Sequence record: NC_052655.1
Length of the DNA stretch: 64,000 nt
Source of the DNA: Escherichia phage alia
Strand: one strand, 5' to 3'
The translations under genes and the position numbers were made by a program. Below are positions 25,484-60,176 of this stretch, piece by piece. Numbering within the stretch: position 1 is the first letter of the stretch; each line of letters opens with the position of its first letter. The notes below the pieces were generated by a model. That model saw only the letters and a list, made by a program, of their open reading frames with translations. It was not told the DNA's origin and made no database searches.

Positions 25484-26146
25484 TTATTTAATATTCAATT
25501 TTGCACAAAGACGTTGTACCGCTTTGGCATCGAACAAACTCCCACGAATAGTTCTCTTTCCTGATTCATTCAGATGCTTTGCAATCGTCATATATGGCGT
25601 TTTACAAGCTCTGTATGCAACTAAAGAATCTTTTAAAGAAAGTGCAAACTCTTTTGAGCGTTTTGCTTCTTCCGTTTTCGTATAATCTGTTCTTTTGTAT
25701 TTAGGGTTTGCTGCACCAAGAAGCGTTCCCTTCGCTTTTGCTACCTTAAGGCTCTTCTTAACACGATCAGATATTGCACGAGCCTCTTCTTCTGCCAGAA
25801 CTGCTAAAATATTTATTATCATATTTTCAGCGGAGGGCATAGTGGCTATCCGTACATTAATCATCTCTAACAAGGTTGCAACAGAAGCTGTGTTACGTCC
25901 AAGACGGTCAACCTTAGCAACAACAAGTGTAGCACCTGTTTCTTTGCAAAGATTAACAGCTTTTACAAGCTCTCTACGTTGCTTCCAATCGCCTTTACCA
26001 GAATAAAACTCTGCAAAGCTACCTACAATAGTATAATTTTCTTGTGAATCCAGGAAGCGTTGGATATCTGCTTCCTGTGATTCTATACCATACTGGTTGC
26101 CTTGTTGTTTCTTCTTAGAAAGTCGATGATACAGTACAAACTTCAT
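25484..26146 (-). CDS. serine recombinase (resolvase/invertase family) with C-terminal HTH
   Basis: ORF track 25484..26200; start moved to ATG 26146 (AGGAGG upstream). Catalytic YHRLSKKKQ (Y-x-R-x-S) and ATLVVAKVDRLGRN motifs. Confidence 0.7.
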   Translation of the reverse strand: MKFVLYHRLSKKKQQGNQYGIESQEADIQRFLDSQENYTIVGSFAEFYSGKGDWKQRRELVKAVNLCKETGATLVVAKVDRLGRNTASVATLLEMINVRIATMPSAENMIINILAVLAEEEARAISDRVKKSLKVAKAKGTLLGAANPKYKRTDYTKTEEAKRSKEFALSLKDSLVAYRACKTPYMTIAKHLNESGKRTIRGSLFDAKAVQRLCAKLNIK

Positions 26147-49038: not shown

Positions 49039-49443
49039 TTATTGTAGCTTAAGTGAACTGCGAAGACGTTTCTCTTGCTGATCACGAATATGTTGTGGAA
49101 CATCATGAATTGAGTCGTTACCGTGCCTATTTTCAACAACTAAAGAGATAACTTGATAACCAAACTCTTCAGCAAGAGTTAAATAAGGTTTAAGTTCTTT
49201 CTCTGTGGTTGAAGTGTTAGAGACAATAATCTTTTCAACACCATACTGCATATATTTTTGTACTTTGACACGACACCATTGGTGTGCTTTATGGATATTC
49301 TCTTCCTTCCACTCATACACACCATCTTCAGTGTAGTGGTATTGATCTGCCTCACAAATAGGCCAATGATTTTCAGAAATAATTTCTGCTACTGTAGATT
49401 TACCTGCACCTGAAACACCACGTAAAATGATAAGTTGTTTCAT
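49039..49443 (-). CDS. P-loop kinase, polynucleotide 5'-kinase-like
   Basis: ILRGVSGAGKSTVAE Walker A and IIVSNTSTT parallel the T4 Pnk kinase domain (ILTIGCPGSGKSTWA...VIISDTNL); 134 aa, kinase only. Confidence 0.65.
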   Translation of the reverse strand: MKQLIILRGVSGAGKSTVAEIISENHWPICEADQYHYTEDGVYEWKEENIHKAHQWCRVKVQKYMQYGVEKIIVSNTSTTEKELKPYLTLAEEFGYQVISLVVENRHGNDSIHDVPQHIRDQQEKRLRSSLKLQ

Positions 49444-50376
49444 TTAGCCTCCAAAGAAGTTTTCTATTTCTTTACGTCGCTCTTGTGGATCTAGAGCAGC
49501 CCATTGAACCTTCGTAAAGTTATTTCGAAGCCATTCTAGCAAAGTATAATATTCTTCGTCAACAATTTGTTTAGCATTGTTTGGGTTGTCCCAAATCATA
49601 TCCCACTTCTTATTGCCACCACGCATAAGGAATTTCTTAGCAAGATAGTATGGTGACTTAATCTTTAAGAGTAAGTTAAACGGATAGTTTGTTTCACGAA
49701 CAACAAAGCCTTCGTGTCTACAATGTTTAGACATTTCAACAACATCTGAAAATTTAATCATCGGATAAACTTCAGGACGTTTAAACTTTGTAACAGATGC
49801 AATCCCATCAAGAACACCTTCAGGTAACATGAAACTTGTCCCATCAAGATTTTGAATTCTTGCTCCAATTAAGTATGCGCCTGGTTCTTCTTCGACAATA
49901 TGTGGATCAGAAGGATCACAGATTTCAAAAAGGAAAGTTGCTTTTGCACTTTCTGTCCACTTAATGAAATACTCTATGTCGTCACACTCGGAAACAATAC
50001 GGTTCTTTGCCATAATTGCAAAATCTGATTCTAGGCTCCCTGTTGTTGATACAACAAGTTTCCCTTTGTACACACCTACAGATGCCATAAAACCGTTTAC
50101 TTTACGGACAGCATCTACAAGTTCATCTGCTGGAAGATCTGTACCATTCTCAAAACGATTAAAGATTTTAGTAAAAGGCCAAACAACAACATTGTCTTCT
50201 GAGTCAACAACCAACCCACGACAATCTAGAAGTCGTTTGTCAACGTTCCACAAATTATCCCAGAATACATTGTTTTTGTATTTAAGTACAGCAAGACCAG
50301 CATACTCTCCAGATTTAACTTCTTTTTTATGCACTAAACCTTTTGCAATCAGGTCATCACAATTGAACTTAGCCAC
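49444..50376 (-). CDS. RNA ligase (Rnl-type nucleotidyltransferase)
   Basis: Motif I RKVNGF (KxNG), motif IV EGFVVRE, motif V LLLKIK; 310 aa; immediately between the kinase and phosphoesterase genes. Confidence 0.65.
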   Translation of the reverse strand: MAKFNCDDLIAKGLVHKKEVKSGEYAGLAVLKYKNNVFWDNLWNVDKRLLDCRGLVVDSEDNVVVWPFTKIFNRFENGTDLPADELVDAVRKVNGFMASVGVYKGKLVVSTTGSLESDFAIMAKNRIVSECDDIEYFIKWTESAKATFLFEICDPSDPHIVEEEPGAYLIGARIQNLDGTSFMLPEGVLDGIASVTKFKRPEVYPMIKFSDVVEMSKHCRHEGFVVRETNYPFNLLLKIKSPYYLAKKFLMRGGNKKWDMIWDNPNNAKQIVDEEYYTLLEWLRNNFTKVQWAALDPQERRKEIENFFGG

Positions 50377-50377
50377 C

Positions 50378-50929
50378 TTAATCTCCTTTGATTATCTTAT
50401 GATGGTCTACAACAACAATATCACGTTTATCCATAATAGAGATGATTTCGTCAAAATGCAAGATTTTTCCGTGTGCATCCCAACCAACATCCAACATTTT
50501 CCCATACAAATGATCAGGGAATGATCCGTGAGAGTGTCCGTGTAGCATGATTGATCCATGCCCTTGTTTATTCCAGGCAGCCATAGGGTAATGGCTTAAG
50601 ACGAAAAACAGCTTCTGATATTTCACTTCGTCATAATAAATCACTTCTCCATACTCTGCAAGCACTTTTCTGTGTTTACTGTAATCATGATTCCCAACAC
50701 AGTAAGTAATATCCCCTTGGAGACGGGAAGCAATCTTACGGGTATCTTCTTCAGTCCCGAAACAGAAGTCCCCAAGATGGTACATCTTTACTCCTGGTGT
50801 TGTGGCACATTTATTCCATGCTTCGATCAGTGCTTCTGTCATATGTTCCATATCTTCCCACGGGCGATATTCAGGAGCAAACTCTCGAATACGTTTGTGC
50901 ATAAAATGCAAATCACTTGTAATAAACAT
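50378..50929 (-). CDS. calcineurin-like metallophosphoesterase
   Basis: DLHFMH...GDFCFG...GNHD...GHSH metal-ligand motifs; 183 aa. Confidence 0.75.
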   Translation of the reverse strand: MFITSDLHFMHKRIREFAPEYRPWEDMEHMTEALIEAWNKCATTPGVKMYHLGDFCFGTEEDTRKIASRLQGDITYCVGNHDYSKHRKVLAEYGEVIYYDEVKYQKLFFVLSHYPMAAWNKQGHGSIMLHGHSHGSFPDHLYGKMLDVGWDAHGKILHFDEIISIMDKRDIVVVDHHKIIKGD

Positions 50930-57263: not shown

Positions 57264-57271
57264 TATTCAAG

Positions 57272-57347
57272 GTTCCATAGCTCACTGACGAGAGCGCACA
57301 CCTCATAAGTGTCGAGGGCAGGGATTGTAACCCTGGGGAACCACCAT
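57272..57347 (+). tRNA. tRNA-Met/Ile2 (anticodon CAT)
   Basis: Hand-folded cloverleaf: acceptor GGTTCCA/GGGAACC (one mismatch), anticodon loop CTCATAA, 3' CCA encoded. Confidence 0.55.
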
Positions 57348-57377
57348 TTAAAAGGAGGTGCTATGCATCTCCTATAT

Positions 57378-57463
57378 GCAAGTGTGGTGGAATTGGTGAT
57401 ACACATTGTGCTTAAAACGCAACGCTTAAATGCTTGAGGGTTCGAATCCCTCCACTTGCACCA
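57378..57463 (+). tRNA. tRNA-Leu (anticodon TAA)
   Basis: Acceptor GCAAGTG/CACTTGC, anticodon stem TTGTG/CGCAA with loop CTTAAAA, long variable arm, T-loop GGTTCGAATCC, CCA encoded. Confidence 0.7.
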
Positions 57464-57478
57464 ACACCTAAAAATATC

Positions 57479-57507
57479 TTGACATTTACTTAGTTTTTTG
57501 TTATAGT
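57479..57507 (+). promoter_or_regulatory. sigma70-like promoter inside the tRNA cluster
   Basis: TTGACA 57479-57484, 17-nt spacer, TATAGT. Confidence 0.5.
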
Positions 57508-57518
57508 CGTTATGAAAA

Positions 57519-57600
57519 CGGGGTGTATCTCACCTGACTTCTAATCAGGCGTTAACCGAGTAATTGGAGTATGCAGGTTCGAATCCTGTCACCCCGGCCA
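57519..57600 (+). tRNA. atypical tRNA-like gene (possible anticodon TCT)
   Basis: Perfect acceptor CGGGGTG/CACCCCG and T-arm GCAGG-TTCGAAT-CCTGT with CCA, but only one internal hairpin (CCTGA-CTTCTAA-TCAGG) and no recognisable D-arm; isotype uncertain. Confidence 0.4.
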
Positions 57601-57618
57601 AAAAGTTTTAAAAACTAC

Positions 57619-57647
57619 TTGACAAGCAAGATAGTTTTATGTTAGAT
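57619..57647 (+). promoter_or_regulatory. sigma70-like promoter inside the tRNA cluster
   Basis: TTGACA 57619-57624, 17-nt spacer, TTAGAT. Confidence 0.45.
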
Positions 57648-57663
57648 TTAAAGTATGATAACG

Positions 57664-57753
57664 GGAAGGTAGGGCGCAGCGGTGCGCAACCAGGTTTGAA
57701 CCCTGGCCCATTGTAGCGATACGGTGATGGTTCGACTCCATTATCTTCCTCCA
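57664..57753 (+). tRNA. tRNA-Ser (anticodon TGA)
   Basis: Acceptor GGAAGGT/ATCTTCC (G-U at pair 6), anticodon stem CCAGG/CCTGG with loop TTTGAAC, long variable arm, T-loop GGTTCGACTCC, CCA encoded. Confidence 0.65.
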
Positions 57754-57798
57754 AATTCAATTAGTAACAGATTCAGGTTGTTTTGAATAATTAAAAAT

Positions 57799-57884
57799 GG
57801 TAGATTGGTGAAATGGTAGCCACAACAGTTTGCTAAACTGTCGTCGGAAACGGCGTGTAGGTTCAAGTCCTACATCTACCGCCA
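57799..57884 (+). tRNA. tRNA-Ser (anticodon GCT)
   Basis: Acceptor GGTAGAT/ATCTACC, anticodon stem ACAGT/ACTGT with loop TTGCTAA, long variable arm, T-loop GGTTCAAGTCC, CCA encoded. Confidence 0.7.
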
Positions 57885-58054
57885 AGTTATCTTTAATGTA
57901 GCTTGTTGCTCTTAGTTGCTTGGTGTAACTTTTTGGAAGAATGGCTGCAACCATCTTACTTTAATAGAGTAAACTTTCGGCAGATGGCCCCCACCATCTT
58001 ACCGATACCTCATAGTCAGTGGTGCGAACACTGGCTATTTTAAAGATAATTTAT

Positions 58055-58129
58055 ACATCGTTAGCCAAGCGGTAAGGCACTTGACTTTTAATCAAGGGAG
58101 CGAAGGTTCGAATCCTTCACGATGTACCA
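58055..58129 (+). tRNA. tRNA-Lys (anticodon TTT)
   Basis: Acceptor ACATCGT/ACGATGT, anticodon stem CTTGA/TCAAG with loop CTTTTAA, T-loop GGTTCGAATCC, CCA encoded. Confidence 0.65.
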
Positions 58130-58134
58130 AACAC

Positions 58135-58221
58135 GTAGGTATCGCATAGCGGCAATTGCTGGAGACTGTAAATCTCCTGCCCTTCGGGGCTTCGTTGGTT
58201 CGAGTCCAACTACCTGCACCA
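58135..58221 (+). tRNA. tRNA-Tyr (anticodon GTA)
   Basis: Acceptor GTAGGTA/TACCTGC (one G-U), anticodon stem GGAGA/TCTCC with loop CTGTAAA, long variable arm, T-loop GGTTCGAGTCC, CCA encoded. Confidence 0.65.
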
Positions 58222-58228
58222 AATTAAA

Positions 58229-58313
58229 GATGGATTGGCCTAGTGGTTGGGCGACGGACTGTTAATCCGTGAACGAAAGTTCTAGCAAGGTTCAAATCCT
58301 TGATCCATCGCCA
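58229..58313 (+). tRNA. tRNA-Asn (anticodon GTT) with unusually long variable region
   Basis: Acceptor GATGGAT/ATCCATC, anticodon stem ACGGA/TCCGT with loop CTGTTAA, extra hairpin GAAC-GAAA-GTTC in the variable region, T-loop GGTTCAAATCC, CCA encoded. Confidence 0.55.
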
Positions 58314-58392
58314 AATAGTGCTTGTAGAGTTAATAGAAACCTCTAGAATTTTCTAGAATTGTAGGTATCAAACCCTACCAAGCAAATATTTT

Positions 58393-58467
58393 GCTCCTAT
58401 CGTATAACGGCTATTACGGTTGCCTTGTAAGCAACTTATCAGGGTTCGAGTCCTTGTGGGAGCACCA
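58393..58467 (+). tRNA. tRNA-Thr (anticodon TGT)
   Basis: Acceptor GCTCCTA/TGGGAGC (one G-U), anticodon stem GTTGC/GCAAC with loop CTTGTAA, T-loop GGTTCGAGTCC, CCA encoded. Confidence 0.7.
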
Positions 58468-58489
58468 ATTTAACTCTAAAGGAGTGTAT

Positions 58490-58813
58490 GTGACAGAAAA
58501 AGAGTTAGAGAAATATTTTAATATCAATGTTTTCGATGGTTTTGATGCTATTGAAGATGTTGAAAGATATTATGAAGTAGAGTTAGATAAGGATAACATT
58601 GTAATTCTTTCTGCCACTTATGATTGTGCATATTATGAAGGCGAATCTCACGTTTATTTCTATGATATGAAAACATCTTTGTTTTATGAAGTACACGCAT
58701 ATCATTGTTCTTGTTATGGCTTAGAAGGTCAGTGGGAACCTGAAGAAATAGGTGATTTGAGCTTTACGGTTGCATATCTAAACAGACGTGGCGCATCTAC
58801 TATTTTAAAATAA
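58490..58813 (+). CDS. hypothetical Cys-rich protein embedded in the tRNA cluster (107 aa, GTG start)
   Basis: ORF track 58391..58813 overlaps tRNA-Thr; start moved to GTG 58490, 5 nt after AAGGAG. C-terminal YHCSCYG cysteines. Confidence 0.5.
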   Translation: MTEKELEKYFNINVFDGFDAIEDVERYYEVELDKDNIVILSATYDCAYYEGESHVYFYDMKTSLFYEVHAYHCSCYGLEGQWEPEEIGDLSFTVAYLNRRGASTILK

Positions 58814-58827
58814 ATATTAAAAGCCTC

Positions 58828-58856
58828 TTGACAAAGGGGCTAATAATATGTTAGAG
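58828..58856 (+). promoter_or_regulatory. sigma70-like promoter inside the tRNA cluster
   Basis: TTGACA 58828-58833, 17-nt spacer, TTAGAG (TAATAT alternative). Confidence 0.45.
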
Positions 58857-58868
58857 TAATATTGTTAA

Positions 58869-58943
58869 GCGGGTATAGTGTTAATGGTAGCATATGAGGT
58901 TTCCACCCTCCAGGTGCAGGTTCAAGTCCTGTTACTCGCTCCA
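58869..58943 (+). tRNA. tRNA-Gly (anticodon TCC)
   Basis: Acceptor GCGGGTA/TACTCGC (one G-U), anticodon loop TTTCCAC, T-loop GGTTCAAGTCC, CCA encoded. Confidence 0.6.
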
Positions 58944-59042
58944 AGATTATTTAAATGGAATCGCTAGAGAAAATTTCTCTTTTCGCTCATGGTTTTCTCC
59001 TTCAAACTCTAGCGGTTCTTTTTAAGTGATTTTTAGTTTTAT

Positions 59043-59117
59043 TGGAGATTAGCCTAGTGGGAAGGCAACGGCCTTTGAAGTCGTGATGACTAGGTTCGAT
59101 TCCTAGATCTCCAGCCA
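59043..59117 (+). tRNA. tRNA-Gln (anticodon TTG)
   Basis: Acceptor TGGAGAT/ATCTCCA, anticodon stem ACGGC/GTCGT with loop CTTTGAA, T-loop GGTTCGATTCC, CCA encoded. Confidence 0.65.
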
Positions 59118-59124
59118 ATATTTA

Positions 59125-59200
59125 CAGTGCGTAGCGCAGTTGGTAGCGTGGGAGCTTTGGATGCTTCGGGTCGCAGGTTCGAGTCCTGCCGCACTGACCA
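59125..59200 (+). tRNA. tRNA-Pro (anticodon TGG)
   Basis: Acceptor CAGTGCG/CGCACTG, anticodon stem GGAGC/GCTTC with loop TTTGGAT, T-loop GGTTCGAGTCC, CCA encoded. Confidence 0.7.
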
Positions 59201-59205
59201 AATTT

Positions 59206-59280
59206 GCAGAGATAGCTGAGACGGATTAGTGCTACCCTGAAAAGGTAGAAAGGATGGATCGTTACCATCTCTCTGCACCA
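59206..59280 (+). tRNA. tRNA-Phe (anticodon GAA) with non-canonical T-loop
   Basis: Acceptor GCAGAGA/TCTCTGC, anticodon stem CTACC/GGTAG with loop CTGAAAA, T-arm GATGG-ATCGTTA-CCATC (not the usual TTCGAAT), CCA encoded. Confidence 0.55.
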
Positions 59281-59357
59281 AATAACACCATCCAAGGAGT
59301 AGACTTGGTTAACTGTCAATAGCACATTGAGGCTTCTTACAGTGGTGTACTTATTAT

Positions 59358-59442
59358 GGCTAAGTGGTGGAATGGTATACACGATACGCTTAGAACGTAT
59401 TGCCCCAAGGGATTGTGAGTTCGAGTCTCACCTTAGCTACCA
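59358..59442 (+). tRNA. tRNA-Leu (anticodon TAG)
   Basis: Acceptor GGCTAAG/CTTAGCT (G1-U72), anticodon stem ATACG/CGTAT with loop CTTAGAA, long variable arm, T-loop GAGTTCGAGTCTC, CCA encoded. Confidence 0.65.
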
Positions 59443-59457
59443 AATTATTACAGGTTT

Positions 59458-59536
59458 CGCGGGATAGAGGAGTCTGGTCGTCCTCGCCAGTTTCATATGC
59501 TGGAGATCATCGGTTCGAATCCGATTTCCGCCTCCA
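59458..59536 (+). tRNA. tRNA-Met/Ile (anticodon CAT), C1/C72 mismatch
   Basis: Anticodon stem CCAGT/GCTGG with loop TTCATAT, T-arm ATCGG-TTCGAAT-CCGAT, CCA encoded; first acceptor pair is C-C, and D-loop is long. Confidence 0.5.
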
Positions 59537-59613
59537 ATAAATACCTCCATTCTGGTGTAATGATTAAATTACATTGACACTTCAAGGAACTCATAGCCGG
59601 GTAGATTTAAAAG

Positions 59614-59680
59614 AGTATGGTACTCAATATGGCTCCAAACCATAGATCAGGGGGTTCGATTCCTCACCTTGCTGCCAATT
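59614..59680 (+). tRNA. degenerate or D-arm-less tRNA-like element (possible anticodon CCA, Trp)
   Basis: Canonical T-loop GGTTCGATTCC and 3' GCCA, internal hairpin TATGG-CTCCAAA-CCATA, but acceptor pairing is imperfect and no D-arm fits; only about 64 nt before CCA. Confidence 0.3.
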
Positions 59681-59682
59681 AT

Positions 59683-59758
59683 TGTGGTATCGTACAGATG
59701 GTTAGTACACTCGACCGATAATCGAGAAACAACGGTTCGACTCCGTTTACCACGACCA
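59683..59758 (+). tRNA. tRNA-Ile (anticodon GAT)
   Basis: Acceptor TGTGGTA/TACCACG (T1-G72), anticodon stem CTCGA/TCGAG with loop CCGATAA, T-loop GGTTCGACTCC, CCA encoded. Confidence 0.6.
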
Positions 59759-59869
59759 AACTCCGTGCCAGCGGTGTCTTCGAAGAACAAGCCTAGTTCC
59801 TTCTGAGATGGAGGGGTGCGACTCCTTAACGCACAACATACTACTACTAAATACTTATCAGGAGATATC

Positions 59870-60149: not shown

Positions 60150-60176
60150 AAAAGCCTCCTTTTTGGAGGTTTTTTA
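60150..60176 (+). terminator. rho-independent terminator
   Basis: AAAGCCTCC-TTTTT-GGAGGTTTTTT. Confidence 0.6.

What the first reader, a model, noticed from the sequence alone, without database searches (positions are those of the whole stretch)
57272..59758. Cluster of about 17 tRNA genes with internal promoters and several structurally atypical members
By hand-folding, the cluster encodes tRNAs with anticodons CAT (two copies), TAA, TGA, GCT, TTT, GTA, GTT, TGT, TCC, TTG, TGG, GAA, TAG and GAT, all with encoded CCA. Four promoters lie inside the cluster. Unusual members: an element at 57519 with perfect acceptor and T arms but no D-arm; tRNA-Asn with an extra hairpin in the variable region; tRNA-Phe with a non-canonical T-loop (ATCGTTA); a CAT tRNA with a C1/C72 mismatch; a D-arm-less CCA-anticodon element at 59614; and two gaps (57885-58054, 59759-59869) with hairpins but no tRNA fold. 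Some may be decoys, pseudo-tRNAs, or substrates tied to the RNA-repair cassette.
Basis: seen in the sequence. Interest (0 to 1): 0.5.

Follow-up and report, generated by a model that had tools for sequence, protein, structure and literature searches.

The report
Phage arginine tRNA with rewired core
The tRNA cluster is the known one of phi92-like coliphages, but its "D-arm-less" member at 57519 belongs to a large, apparently undescribed, phage-borne family of arginine tRNAs in which the two strands of the D-stem sit on either side of the anticodon arm, a fold that standard tRNA finders miss.

Summary
The window is a phi92-like myovirus. At 57271-59758 it carries 15 ordinary tRNA genes plus two odd ones, all with encoded CCA. 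The cluster itself is already annotated in relatives.

The element at 57519-57600 is not a pseudogene. It belongs to a family of at least 134 distinct sequences on phage contigs, including Felix O1, wV8, PBECO4, Mydo and Streptomyces phage Yaboi.

- **Fold:** acceptor, anticodon and T arms are canonical. The D hairpin is replaced by a 3-bp helix (CNC 5' of the anticodon arm, GNG 3' of it), followed by a D-loop-like UAAUUGGA.
- **Covariation:** 97.5-97.7% of cells are paired. 18 of 20 and 20 of 20 pairs show compensatory changes.
- **Isotype:** 128 of 134 anticodons are arginine (UCU, ACG, CCU, UCG). The A20-equivalent base is A in 127 of 128 of these and U in all 5 isoleucine-anticodon members.
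- **Detection:** ARAGORN misses 172 of 177 copies.
- **Codon demand:** the Felix O1 authors expected but did not find an AGA tRNA. AGA makes up 24% of Arg codons in this window.

The "CCA element" is an 8/4-type tRNA-Trp at 59595-59677. Three of the four claimed promoters are supported. No expression or charging data exist.

The parts
57271..59758 (+). tRNA gene cluster: 15 ARAGORN tRNAs plus two non-canonical tRNA genes, all with encoded CCA
   Evidence: Homologous and annotated in phi92 and ESCO32.
57479..57507 (+). sigma-70-like promoter (TTGACA, 17-nt spacer, TATAGT, TG upstream; 11 of 12 matches) ending 12 nt before the non-canonical Arg gene
   Evidence: consensus scan only
57519..57600 (+). 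non-canonical tRNA-Arg(UCU) gene, 82 nt including CCA
   Evidence: Rfam RF00005 38.6 bits. Own covariance model R1 100.9 bits, next best hit in the window 24 bits. Family covariation.
57519..57525 (+). acceptor stem 5' strand CGGGGUG, pairing with 57590-57596 (CACCCCG)
   Evidence: 7 of 7 pairs with compensatory changes across the family
57526..57528 (+). connector UAU (U8, A9 and one extra U), invariant
57529..57531 (+). CUC, the 5' strand of the split D-stem equivalent. It continues through A57532 into the anticodon stem.
   Evidence: Pairs with 57558-57560. 100% and 99% of cells paired. Middle pair UA/CG/GC/AU = 38/20/11/3 and UA/CG/AU/GC = 25/19/12/10.
57533..57549 (+). anticodon arm CCUGA-CUUCUAA-UCAGG; anticodon UCU at 57540-57542
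57550..57557 (+). 8-nt linker CGUUAACC, bulged between the anticodon stem and the GAG strand (3-5 nt in most short-linker members, subtype B, and up to 12 nt in rare variants)
57558..57560 (+). GAG, the 3' strand of the split D-stem equivalent
57561..57568 (+). D-loop-like UAAUUGGA carrying the equivalents of A14, A15, G18, G19 and A20 (A20 = 57568)
   Evidence: TAA, GG and the following A are invariant. A after GG in 127 of 128 Arg members, U in 5 of 5 Ile members.
57569..57572 (+). GUAU, the variable-loop equivalent, ending in invariant U (U48 equivalent)
57573..57589 (+). T arm GCAGG-UUCGAAU-CCUGU
57597..57600 (+). discriminator G and encoded CCA
57619..57648 (+). sigma-70-like promoter upstream of tRNA-Ser(UGA)
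57664..57753 (+). tRNA-Ser(UGA) that reads as an 8/4 tRNA (acceptor GGAAGGUA/UAUCUUCC, T stem AUGG/CCAU)
   Evidence: Fails Rfam tRNA and hits tRNA-Sec at 35.3 bits. 8th pair A-U here, G-C in PVP-SE1. Known class, PMC5389517.
58229..58313 (+). tRNA-Asn(GUU), 85 nt, with a variable-arm hairpin GAAC-GAAA-GUUC at 58271-58282
58828..58857 (+). sigma-70-like promoter upstream of tRNA-Gly
59206..59280 (+). tRNA-Phe(GAA) with T-loop AUCGUUA (A54/U58 instead of U54/A58)
   Evidence: Rfam 49.2 bits. Flagged pseudo in phi92.
59458..59536 (+). CAU-anticodon tRNA with an unpaired 1:72 position (C.C)
   Evidence: The mismatch is kept as A.C in Phapecoctavirus nieznany.
59595..59677 (+). non-canonical 8/4 tRNA-Trp(CCA): 8-bp acceptor, 10-nt connector, 5-bp D hairpin with UGG loop, 4-bp T stem, G73, CCA
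60150..60174 (+). intrinsic-terminator-like hairpin after the ORF that follows the cluster

Best explanation
Window 57519-57600 encodes a working arginine tRNA that reads AGA, with a rewired core.

Shown: acceptor stem (7 bp), anticodon arm (5 bp and a 7-nt loop CUUCUAA) and T arm (5 bp, UUCGAAU) are canonical. There is no D hairpin between the acceptor and anticodon arms. Instead, three bases 5' of the anticodon arm (CUC) pair with three bases 3' of it (GAG), across an 8-nt bulged linker. The GAG strand runs directly into a D-loop-like UAAUUGGA and a 4-nt variable-loop equivalent.

Inferred: the 3-bp helix stacks on the anticodon stem as a normal D-stem does. The relocated loop supplies the equivalents of A14, A15, G18, G19 and A20, which meet U8, U48 and the T-loop as usual. 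[quoted passage not shown] Every new chain connection (9 to 23, 43 to 10, 21 to 45-48) joins residues that are neighbours in the canonical tRNA crystal structure (established knowledge of yeast tRNA-Phe).

Inferred: host ArgRS charges it through A20, C35 and U36. The gene is transcribed from its own near-consensus promoter. It supplies tRNA-Arg(UCU) for a phage whose genes use AGA about five times more often than E. coli does.

Why phages keep this topology is not shown. The most likely added benefit is escape from a host enzyme that recognises the canonical D-arm or core of tRNA-Arg.
For: (1) One strong family member in the window: R1 100.9 bits, E about 1e-29. Canonical tRNAs score 24 bits or less.

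(2) The family is large. There are 179 covariance-model hits and 134 distinct sequences in 162 sources (161 fetched loci plus this window). Cultured hosts of these phages span Escherichia, Salmonella, Klebsiella, Proteus, Vibrio and Streptomyces.

(3) Covariation is strong. In A4, 97.7% of cells are paired against 66.6% in shuffles, 18 of 20 pairs have double changes, and the score is 0.793 against 0.192 (0 of 500 shuffles reach it; slid registers 0.157 or less). The independent set A5 gives 97.5%, 20 of 20 and 0.877. All three pairs of the unusual helix show compensatory changes, and its middle pair uses all four Watson-Crick types. RNAalifold returns the same structure. A regex parse and a structure-only descriptor that used no model recover the same helices.

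(4) Rival helices fail. The variable-arm hairpin is 61.5% paired. The vestigial D hairpin has its middle pair unpaired in 67 of 72 sequences.

(5) Isotype logic holds. Of 134 anticodons, 128 are Arg (UCU 92, ACG 19, CCU 12, UCG 5). The base after GG is A in 127 of 128 Arg members and U in 5 of 5 members with Ile anticodons. This matches A20 as the ArgRS identity base (established knowledge; reviewed in PMC9976931).

(6) Distribution is complementary. Of 161 loci, 98 have no canonical Arg tRNA nearby, 61 have one only with a different anticodon, and 2 have the same anticodon. The sister genus Phapecoctavirus carries a canonical tRNA-Arg(UCU) instead.

(7) Members sit inside tRNA clusters, with a mean of 8.7 canonical tRNAs per locus.

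(8) AGA is 24.4% of Arg codons in 51 window ORFs. The Felix O1 paper expected a tRNA for Arg[AGA] and found none with tRNAscan-SE (PMC3185647). R1 finds the gene, unannotated, at Felix O1 25951-26029 (98.8 bits).

(9) A near-consensus promoter ends 12 nt upstream, and the gene has an encoded CCA.
Against: - No expression, processing, modification or aminoacylation data are available for any member.
- The unusual helix is only 3 bp long. For the window's own sequence the thermodynamic optimum is the rival variable-arm hairpin CCGA/UUGG, not CUC/GAG.
- Alignments A4 and A5 were fitted to the model, which biases pair counts toward it. The slid-register controls, the independent parses and RNAalifold mitigate this.
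- The L-shape and tertiary contacts are inferred from conserved bases, not modelled or measured.
- The first anticodon-stem pair (27:43) is unpaired in about a quarter to a third of distinct members.
- The anticodon loop is identical to that of E. coli tRNA-Arg(UCU) (own knowledge), so escape from loop-specific nucleases is not explained by sequence.
- The literature search covers open-access papers only and cannot exclude an earlier description.
Confidence: 0.72

Rival explanations
1. A tRNA-like decoy or regulator. The RNA is made and folds as described, but it is not used on the ribosome. It would titrate or distract a host factor, such as a tRNA-Arg-directed nuclease, a modification enzyme or ArgRS itself, protecting host or phage tRNA-Arg.
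For: The phage carries an RNA-repair cassette, so attack on tRNAs is part of its biology. Host defences that cut tRNAs, including tRNA-Arg, are documented (retron Eco2, PMC12916289; PARIS, PrrC and retron systems). Irregular tRNAs that are charged but not used in translation have been reported (PMC5389517). The rewired core could be tolerated by a decoy more easily than by the ribosome.
Against: A decoy would not need to track anticodon slots. Yet members carry four different Arg anticodons and almost never duplicate a canonical Arg tRNA with the same anticodon in the same locus (2 of 161). The A20-equivalent switches to U exactly when the anticodon becomes Ile, which points to real aminoacylation identity. 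The acceptor/T domain keeps the 7/5 geometry that EF-Tu needs.
Confidence: 0.17
2. A decaying pseudo-tRNA: a former tRNA-Arg gene that lost its D-arm by deletion and gained junk in the variable region.
For: ARAGORN does not call it. It is unannotated in phi92, ESCO32 and Felix O1. phi92 annotators flagged neighbouring genes as pseudo or hypothetical.
Against: 134 distinct sequences from very different phages keep every helix through compensatory changes. The loops are invariant. Bit scores are about 100 against a model built from other phages.
Confidence: 0.02
3. A permuted or interrupted gene whose transcript is cut and rejoined, for instance by the phage RNA ligase, into a canonical cloverleaf.
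For: The segment GNG-UAAUUGGA looks like positions 10-21 of a T4-type tRNA-Arg moved downstream of the anticodon arm (compare nieznany tRNA-Arg). The phage encodes an Rnl1-type ligase. Permuted tRNA genes exist in a red alga (own knowledge).
Against: Restoring the canonical order would need two cuts and two ligations in a new order, for which no signal is seen. Selection acts on pairing of CNC with GNG in the gene order as encoded. Whether family members outside this window lie near an RNA ligase was not checked.
Confidence: 0.03
4. The conservation reflects a DNA-level element, such as a homing-endonuclease target or recombination site within tRNA clusters, and not an RNA.
For: HNH endonuclease ORFs lie next to or over the element in Felix O1, Roth37, tootiki and others.
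Against: DNA target sites do not produce strand-specific compensatory base-pair changes in four helices. Members lie in tRNA clusters, and in the window and in every annotated relative examined they are on the strand of the neighbouring tRNAs.
Confidence: 0.02

Closest known systems
Canonical phage and bacterial tRNA-Arg(UCU) (T4-type tRNA-Arg; E. coli argU)
   Same: The anticodon loop CUUCUAA and the T arm GCAGG-UUCGAAU-CCUG are the same. T arm and 3' acceptor are 97% identical to T5-like tRNA-Arg over 32 nt. The D-loop motif UAAU(U)GGA with A20 is shared. The role is also the same: supplying a codon that is rare in the host. The sister genus Phapecoctavirus carries the canonical version in its homologous tRNA cluster.
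   Different: There is no D hairpin between positions 9 and 26. The D-stem strands are separated by the whole anticodon arm, and the D-loop motif lies where the variable loop normally is. ARAGORN misses 172 of 177 members.
D-arm-lacking mitochondrial tRNAs (for example Ascaris mt-tRNA-Ser(UCU)), reviewed in PMC7609411
   Same: No hairpin between the acceptor and anticodon stems, only a short connector (here 7 nt).
   Different: Mitochondrial forms have lost the D-stem and the D-loop/T-loop contact and need adapted factors. This family keeps a D-stem equivalent, the GG motif, a full T arm and the universal tertiary-pair bases, and it occurs in phages of ordinary bacteria. The 2020 review does not mention phages at all.
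allo-tRNAs and (8/4) tRNA-Ser and tRNA-His of phages (Mukai et al. 2017, PMC5389517)
   Same: These are structurally irregular tRNAs found in phage tRNA clusters and missed by standard finders. The window's tRNA-Ser(UGA) and the Trp gene at 59595 have this 8/4 acceptor/T geometry.
   Different: The Arg family is 7/5, and its irregularity lies in the D region and its topology, not in the acceptor/T branch. The paper mentions neither tRNA-Arg nor tRNA-Trp.
Circularly permuted tRNA genes of Cyanidioschyzon merolae (own knowledge)
   Same: Segments of a tRNA are encoded in a non-canonical order.
   Different: There the mature RNA is a normal cloverleaf after processing. Here the covariation shows that the colinear transcript itself is the folded molecule.

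Membership tests
tRNA (Rfam RF00005) | Covariance-model score at or above the gathering cut-off | tested here: met
   57519-57597 scores 38.6 bits against 29. The Trp element has no RF00005 hit, only tRNA-Sec at 22.4 bits against 47.
tRNA (canonical cloverleaf) | 7-bp acceptor stem, 5-bp T stem with UUCRANY loop, 5-bp anticodon stem with 7-nt loop, U33 and purine 37 | tested here: met
tRNA (canonical cloverleaf) | D stem-loop hairpin located between position 9 and position 26 | tested here: not met
   Only 7 nt (UAUCUCA) lie between the acceptor and anticodon stems. The pairing partner of CUC lies 3' of the anticodon arm.
tRNA (functional) | Processed to tRNA size, CCA end, aminoacylated, used by the ribosome | not testable with these tools
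   CCA is encoded. No RNA or charging data are accessible.
tRNA-Arg isoacceptor (bacterial ArgRS identity set) | A20 in the D-loop, C35, U36 or G36, purine 73 | tested here: met
   C35 is invariant and position 36 is U or G in all 128 Arg-anticodon members. A follows G18-G19 in 127 of 128. The window has G73. Equating this A with A20 is an inference from the motif.
D-arm-lacking (mitochondrial-type) tRNA | Loss of the D-stem and of the D-loop/T-loop GG contact | tested here: not met
   A covarying 3-bp D-stem equivalent and an invariant GG are present.
allo-tRNA / (8/4) or (9/3) tRNAs | 8- or 9-bp acceptor stem with a 4- or 3-bp T stem | tested here: not met
   The Arg family is 7/5. The feature is met for the Trp gene at 59595-59677 (8th pair UA 5, AU 2, CG 1) and reads as met for Ser(UGA).
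pseudo-tRNA | Relaxed constraint: broken helices, no compensatory change | tested here: not met
   97.5-97.7% of cells paired, with compensatory changes in 18-20 of 20 pairs.

The most novel reading that the evidence does not exclude
Phages maintain a second, topologically distinct solution to the tRNA fold. Its D-stem is closed around the anticodon arm, yet bacterial ArgRS, EF-Tu and the ribosome accept it. On this reading it was selected because it is invisible or resistant to a host factor, a defence nuclease or a modification enzyme, that reads the canonical D-arm or core of tRNA-Arg. Together with the 8/4 Trp and Ser tRNAs and the variable-arm Asn tRNA in the same cluster, it would show that structural disguise of tRNA bodies, and not only anticodon-loop mutation, is a general phage counter-defence.
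Probability: 0.3. Interest if true: 0.9.

Novelty: new variant of a known kind. Interest (0 to 1): 0.8.

Why it matters
If the fold works as a tRNA, it is a natural and widespread exception to the statement that all known bacterial tRNAs are canonical cloverleaves (abstract of PMC11551756). It would show that the bacterial translation apparatus accepts a different chain topology in the tRNA core.

- **Annotation:** it would explain "missing" arginine tRNAs in well-studied phages. Felix O1 has lacked an AGA tRNA since its first annotation. Hundreds of phage genomes could be corrected.
- **Tools:** it exposes a blind spot of ARAGORN and tRNAscan-type finders.
- **Engineering:** it offers a ready-made scaffold for orthogonal tRNA design.
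- **Phage biology:** it gives a concrete test case for whether phages disguise tRNA bodies to evade tRNA-targeting immunity.

Tried and rejected
- **ARAGORN modes.** Intron mode added nothing. The lowered threshold gave the Trp candidate in a wrong register, plus antisense artefacts. Mitochondrial mode gave the anticodon-less element at 58318 as a false "Arg(tct)".
- **Rfam at E up to 10.** It found no other family for any spacer.
- **Rival helices for the Arg element.** The variable-arm hairpin and the vestigial D hairpin were both rejected by pair counts.
- **Other isotypes with the same architecture.** A structure-only descriptor over about 2 Mb of held phage loci returned only Arg, three Ile and one spurious hit. 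These loci were chosen because they contain the family, so absence elsewhere is not shown.
- **Bacterial genomes.** The pattern scan of 185,579 species genomes gave 40 matches. Only 8 are true members, all on MAG contigs and none on an isolate chromosome.
- **Tertiary covariation.** Mutual information among unpaired positions showed only subtype-linked length coupling.
- **Literature.** Nine searches, including one with literal sequence strings, found no description of the fold.
- **Fourth promoter and gap 59759-59869.** Neither is supported.
- **Trp family in IMG/VR.** A strict pattern returned only 5 loci, so that family rests on 8 sequences.

Full report
**What the window is.** The region 57200-59900 matches Justusliebigvirus genomes (phi92-like myoviruses of E. 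coli) over its full length. Identity is 98.5% to ESCO32 and 97% to phi92. In those records the tRNA cluster is annotated with the same order of genes. The cluster as such is therefore already known. Upstream on the same strand lie PRPP synthetase and nicotinamide phosphoribosyltransferase genes.

It is real: a P-loop kinase-like protein (AAA_33), an Rnl1-type RNA ligase (PF09511) and a metallophosphoesterase, at 49039-50929.

**Check of the observation.**
- Rfam's tRNA model passes 13 of them. It fails Met(CAU) at 57271 and Ser(UGA) at 57664. It adds 57519-57597 at 38.6 bits.
- All 17 candidates end in an encoded CCA.
- The variable-arm hairpin of tRNA-Asn, the AUCGUUA T-loop of tRNA-Phe and the C1/C72 mismatch of the second CAU tRNA are as described.
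- Three strong sigma-70-like promoters with TG extensions lie inside the cluster, at 57479-57507, 57619-57648 and 58828-58857.
- The fourth claimed promoter has a 22-nt spacer, is not called, and overlaps a tRNA acceptor strand.

**The element at 57519.** Its sequence reads CGGGGUG UAU CUC A CCUGA CUUCUAA UCAGG CGUUAACC GAG UAAUUGGAGUAU GCAGG UUCGAAU CCUGU CACCCCG G CCA.

Distant BLAST showed that this unannotated stretch is conserved at 80-90% in very different phages. These include Felixounavirus (wV8 and many Salmonella phages), the jumbo phages PBECO4 and 121Q, Proteus phage Mydo, Klebsiella phage Roth37, a Vibrio phage and Streptomyces phage Yaboi. It is labelled nothing, tRNA-OTHER, tRNA-Leu or tRNA-Val in these records.

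A seven-sequence alignment already showed compensatory changes in the acceptor, anticodon and T stems. It also showed compensation between the triplet CNC before the anticodon arm and a triplet GNG after it: CUC/GAG, CCC/GGG and CGC/GCG.

**Size and structure of the family.**
- Three pattern scans of IMG/VR gave about 165 loci.
- A regex parse found 118 distinct sequences, nearly all with 19-20 of 20 pairs formed.
- I built a covariance model (R1) from 16 sequences with the proposed structure.
- In the window R1 finds one member at 100.9 bits. Ordinary tRNAs score 24 bits or less.
- Over all loci R1 finds 179 copies, 134 of them distinct.
- Pair counting on the first set gives 97.7% paired cells against 66.6% in shuffles, 18 of 20 pairs with changes on both sides, and a covariation score of 0.793 against 0.192. 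No shuffle out of 500 reaches this, and slid registers reach at most 0.157.
- The second, non-overlapping set gives 97.5%, 20 of 20 and 0.877.
- The unusual helix is 99-100% paired, and its middle pair uses all four Watson-Crick types.
- RNAalifold returns the same structure.
- Two rival pairings fail. A hairpin inside the long "variable region" is 61.5% paired. A vestigial D hairpin has its middle pair unpaired in 67 of 72 sequences.
- One caveat remains. For the window's sequence alone the minimum-energy fold is the variable-region hairpin. The comparative evidence, not thermodynamics, decides for the CUC/GAG helix.

**What the fold means (inference).** In a normal tRNA the order is 8-9, D-stem 5' strand (10-13), D-loop (14-21), D-stem 3' strand (22-25), 26, anticodon arm, variable loop, T arm.

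Here the order is U8-A9-U, CNC, N, anticodon arm, linker, GNG, UAAUUGGA, 4-5 nt, T arm.
- CNC-N runs straight into the anticodon stem, as 23-25 and 26 do.
- GNG is followed by a sequence that matches positions 13-20 of T4-type tRNA-Arg (compare the canonical tRNA-Arg of phage nieznany).
- The invariant bases are the ones that make the universal tertiary pairs: U8 with A14, A15 with U48, G18-G19 with the T-loop, and U54 with A58.

From the known crystal structure of tRNA, residue 9 lies against pair 12-23, residues 44-45 lie against 26 and 10-25, and residue 21 lies next to 46-48. Each new chain connection therefore joins neighbours. I infer that the L-shape is kept with a different chain path. 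This could not be modelled here.

**Evidence that it is an arginine tRNA in use.**
- Of 134 distinct members, 128 have arginine anticodons (UCU 92, ACG 19, CCU 12, UCG 5). Five have isoleucine anticodons.
- The base after GG, the A20 equivalent and the main ArgRS identity base, is A in 127 of 128 arginine members and U in all five isoleucine members.
- Members lie in tRNA clusters.
- Of 161 loci, 98 have no canonical Arg tRNA in the fetched flank, 61 have one only with a different anticodon, and 2 have the same anticodon.
- Several contigs carry two members with different Arg anticodons.
- The sister genus Phapecoctavirus has a canonical tRNA-Arg(UCU) in its homologous tRNA cluster.
- In the window AGA is 24.4% of arginine codons, 9.9 per thousand. 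This is several-fold above E. coli (own knowledge).
- The Felix O1 genome paper found 22 tRNAs with tRNAscan-SE and noted that a tRNA for Arg[AGA] would have been expected (PMC3185647). R1 finds the gene in Felix O1 at 25951-26029 with 98.8 bits. It is unannotated and partly under an annotated HNH endonuclease ORF.
- ARAGORN misses 172 of 177 members.

**Distribution.** A scan of one genome from each of 185,579 bacterial and archaeal species gave only 8 true members. All are on MAG contigs and none on an isolate chromosome. The family is essentially phage-borne.

A structure-only search of the held phage loci found the architecture only with Arg and a few Ile anticodons. Those loci were selected for containing the family.

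**Prior knowledge.**
- Nine full-text searches, including literal sequence strings, found no description of this fold.
- The 2020 review of non-canonical tRNAs does not mention phages.
- Mukai et al. 2017 describe 8/4 tRNA-Ser and tRNA-His in phages but neither Arg nor Trp.
- A 2024 paper states that all known bacterial tRNAs are canonical (abstract).

The library holds open-access papers only, so an earlier report elsewhere cannot be excluded.

**The CCA-anticodon element.** It is conserved in Klebsiella phage FKP3, Citrobacter phage Tr1, Hafnia phage SarahDanielle and Pectobacterium phage DU_PP_I. In PVP-SE1 it is the annotated 81-nt tRNA-Trp.

It spans 59595-59677, with these features:
- an 8-bp acceptor stem (the 8th pair is UA, AU or CG);
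- a 10-nt connector;
- a 5-bp D hairpin with a UGG loop;
- a normal anticodon arm;
- a 4-bp T stem;
- G73 and CCA.

Across eight sequences, 93.8% of cells pair and 14 of 22 pairs show compensatory changes. A1-U72, G73 and CCA are the TrpRS identity set of E. coli (own knowledge). It is a new isotype of the known 8/4 class, with an unusual long connector.

The window copy has a C4.U69 mismatch that is shared by several lineages. tRNA-Ser(UGA) also reads as 8/4. That explains why it fails the tRNA model and hits the tRNA-Sec model.

**Other members.**
- The variable arm of tRNA-Asn is kept with compensatory changes under a constant GAAA loop in four genera: GAAC/GUUC, GAGU/ACUC, GUUC/GAAC and GAGA/UCUC.
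- The 1:72 mismatch of the CAU tRNA at 59458 is kept as A.C in Phapecoctavirus. That recalls initiator tRNA, but the anticodon stem lacks the three G-C pairs.
- The Met(CAU) at 57271 lacks GG in its D-loop and has the T-loop AUUGUAA. It has close relatives only.

**Verdict.** The cluster is known. The element at 57519 leads to a large, phage-restricted family of arginine tRNAs with a rewired D region, supported by strong covariation and identity logic but so far by no experiment.

Noticed in passing
window 58318-58386 (+); L221:1590-1670 (phage nieznany): A tRNA-like element between tRNA-Asn and tRNA-Thr. It has an acceptor stem, a D-arm-like stem and a T arm with an 8-nt loop, but the anticodon arm is replaced by a tetraloop hairpin and there is no CCA. 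It is conserved in Phapecoctavirus with compensatory changes in the acceptor and T stems. Folding z = -3.88. It is absent in Klebsiella phage KP2025, where the spacer is 7 nt.
   Followed up: partly
window 57955-58053 (+); alignment A7: A conserved 100-nt element of three hairpins (z = -4.12) immediately upstream of tRNA-Lys. It is 82-95% identical in Phapecoctavirus and in T5-like phages (Spc35, HildyBeyeler, vB_Sen-E22). In the T5-like phages and in Justusliebigvirus it lies directly upstream of a tRNA gene, and in Phapecoctavirus about 100 nt upstream of one. It was annotated as a feature in none of the listed records and has no Rfam match. Possibly a stable small RNA or a processing element.
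   Followed up: partly
window 57664-57753 (+): tRNA-Ser(UGA) reads as an 8/4 tRNA (8-bp acceptor, 4-bp T stem), the class described for phage tRNA-Ser by Mukai et al. 2017. Rfam's tRNA model fails it, and the tRNA-Sec model gives 35.3 bits.
   Followed up: partly
window 58271-58282 within tRNA-Asn 58229-58313: A class-II-like variable arm in an asparagine tRNA: a 4-bp stem capped by a constant GAAA loop. The stem covaries across Justusliebigvirus, Phapecoctavirus, PVP-SE1 and Klebsiella phage KP2025.
   Followed up: partly
window 58944-59042 (+): A long imperfect hairpin (z = -4.13) fills the Gly-Gln spacer. phi92 has about 330 extra bases with a small ORF (gp113) at this place, so this may be a footprint or target of a mobile insert.
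   Followed up: no
window 49039-50929 (-): An RNA-repair cassette split into three ORFs: an AAA_33 kinase-like protein (134 aa), a T4 Rnl1-type RNA ligase (310 aa) and a metallophosphoesterase (183 aa).
   Followed up: partly
L219:552-630 = Felix O1 NC_005282 25951-26029: The type phage Felix O1 carries an unannotated member of the rewired Arg(UCU) family (98.8 bits). Its 3' part lies under the annotated start of HNH endonuclease ORF45 (26003).
   Followed up: yes
L220:1348-1433 and L220:2536-2617 (Salmonella phage PVP-SE1): The annotated 86-nt tRNA-Lys has about 12 extra bases between the D-arm and the anticodon arm; ARAGORN calls it tRNA-??? with a 4-base anticodon. The annotated 82-nt tRNA-Met has an over-long D region. 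There are more irregular tRNAs in this phage group.
   Followed up: no
window 57271-57346 (+): Met(CAU) lacks GG in its D-loop (ACUGACGA), has the T-loop AUUGUAA and has an A7.G66 mismatch. Rfam gives no tRNA hit even at E = 10. phi92 calls it a hypothetical tRNA.
   Followed up: no
L059, L129, L150, L156, L171: Five family members have isoleucine anticodons (UAU, GAU), U instead of A at the A20-equivalent position, and discriminator A, as if the rewired scaffold had switched identity.
   Followed up: partly
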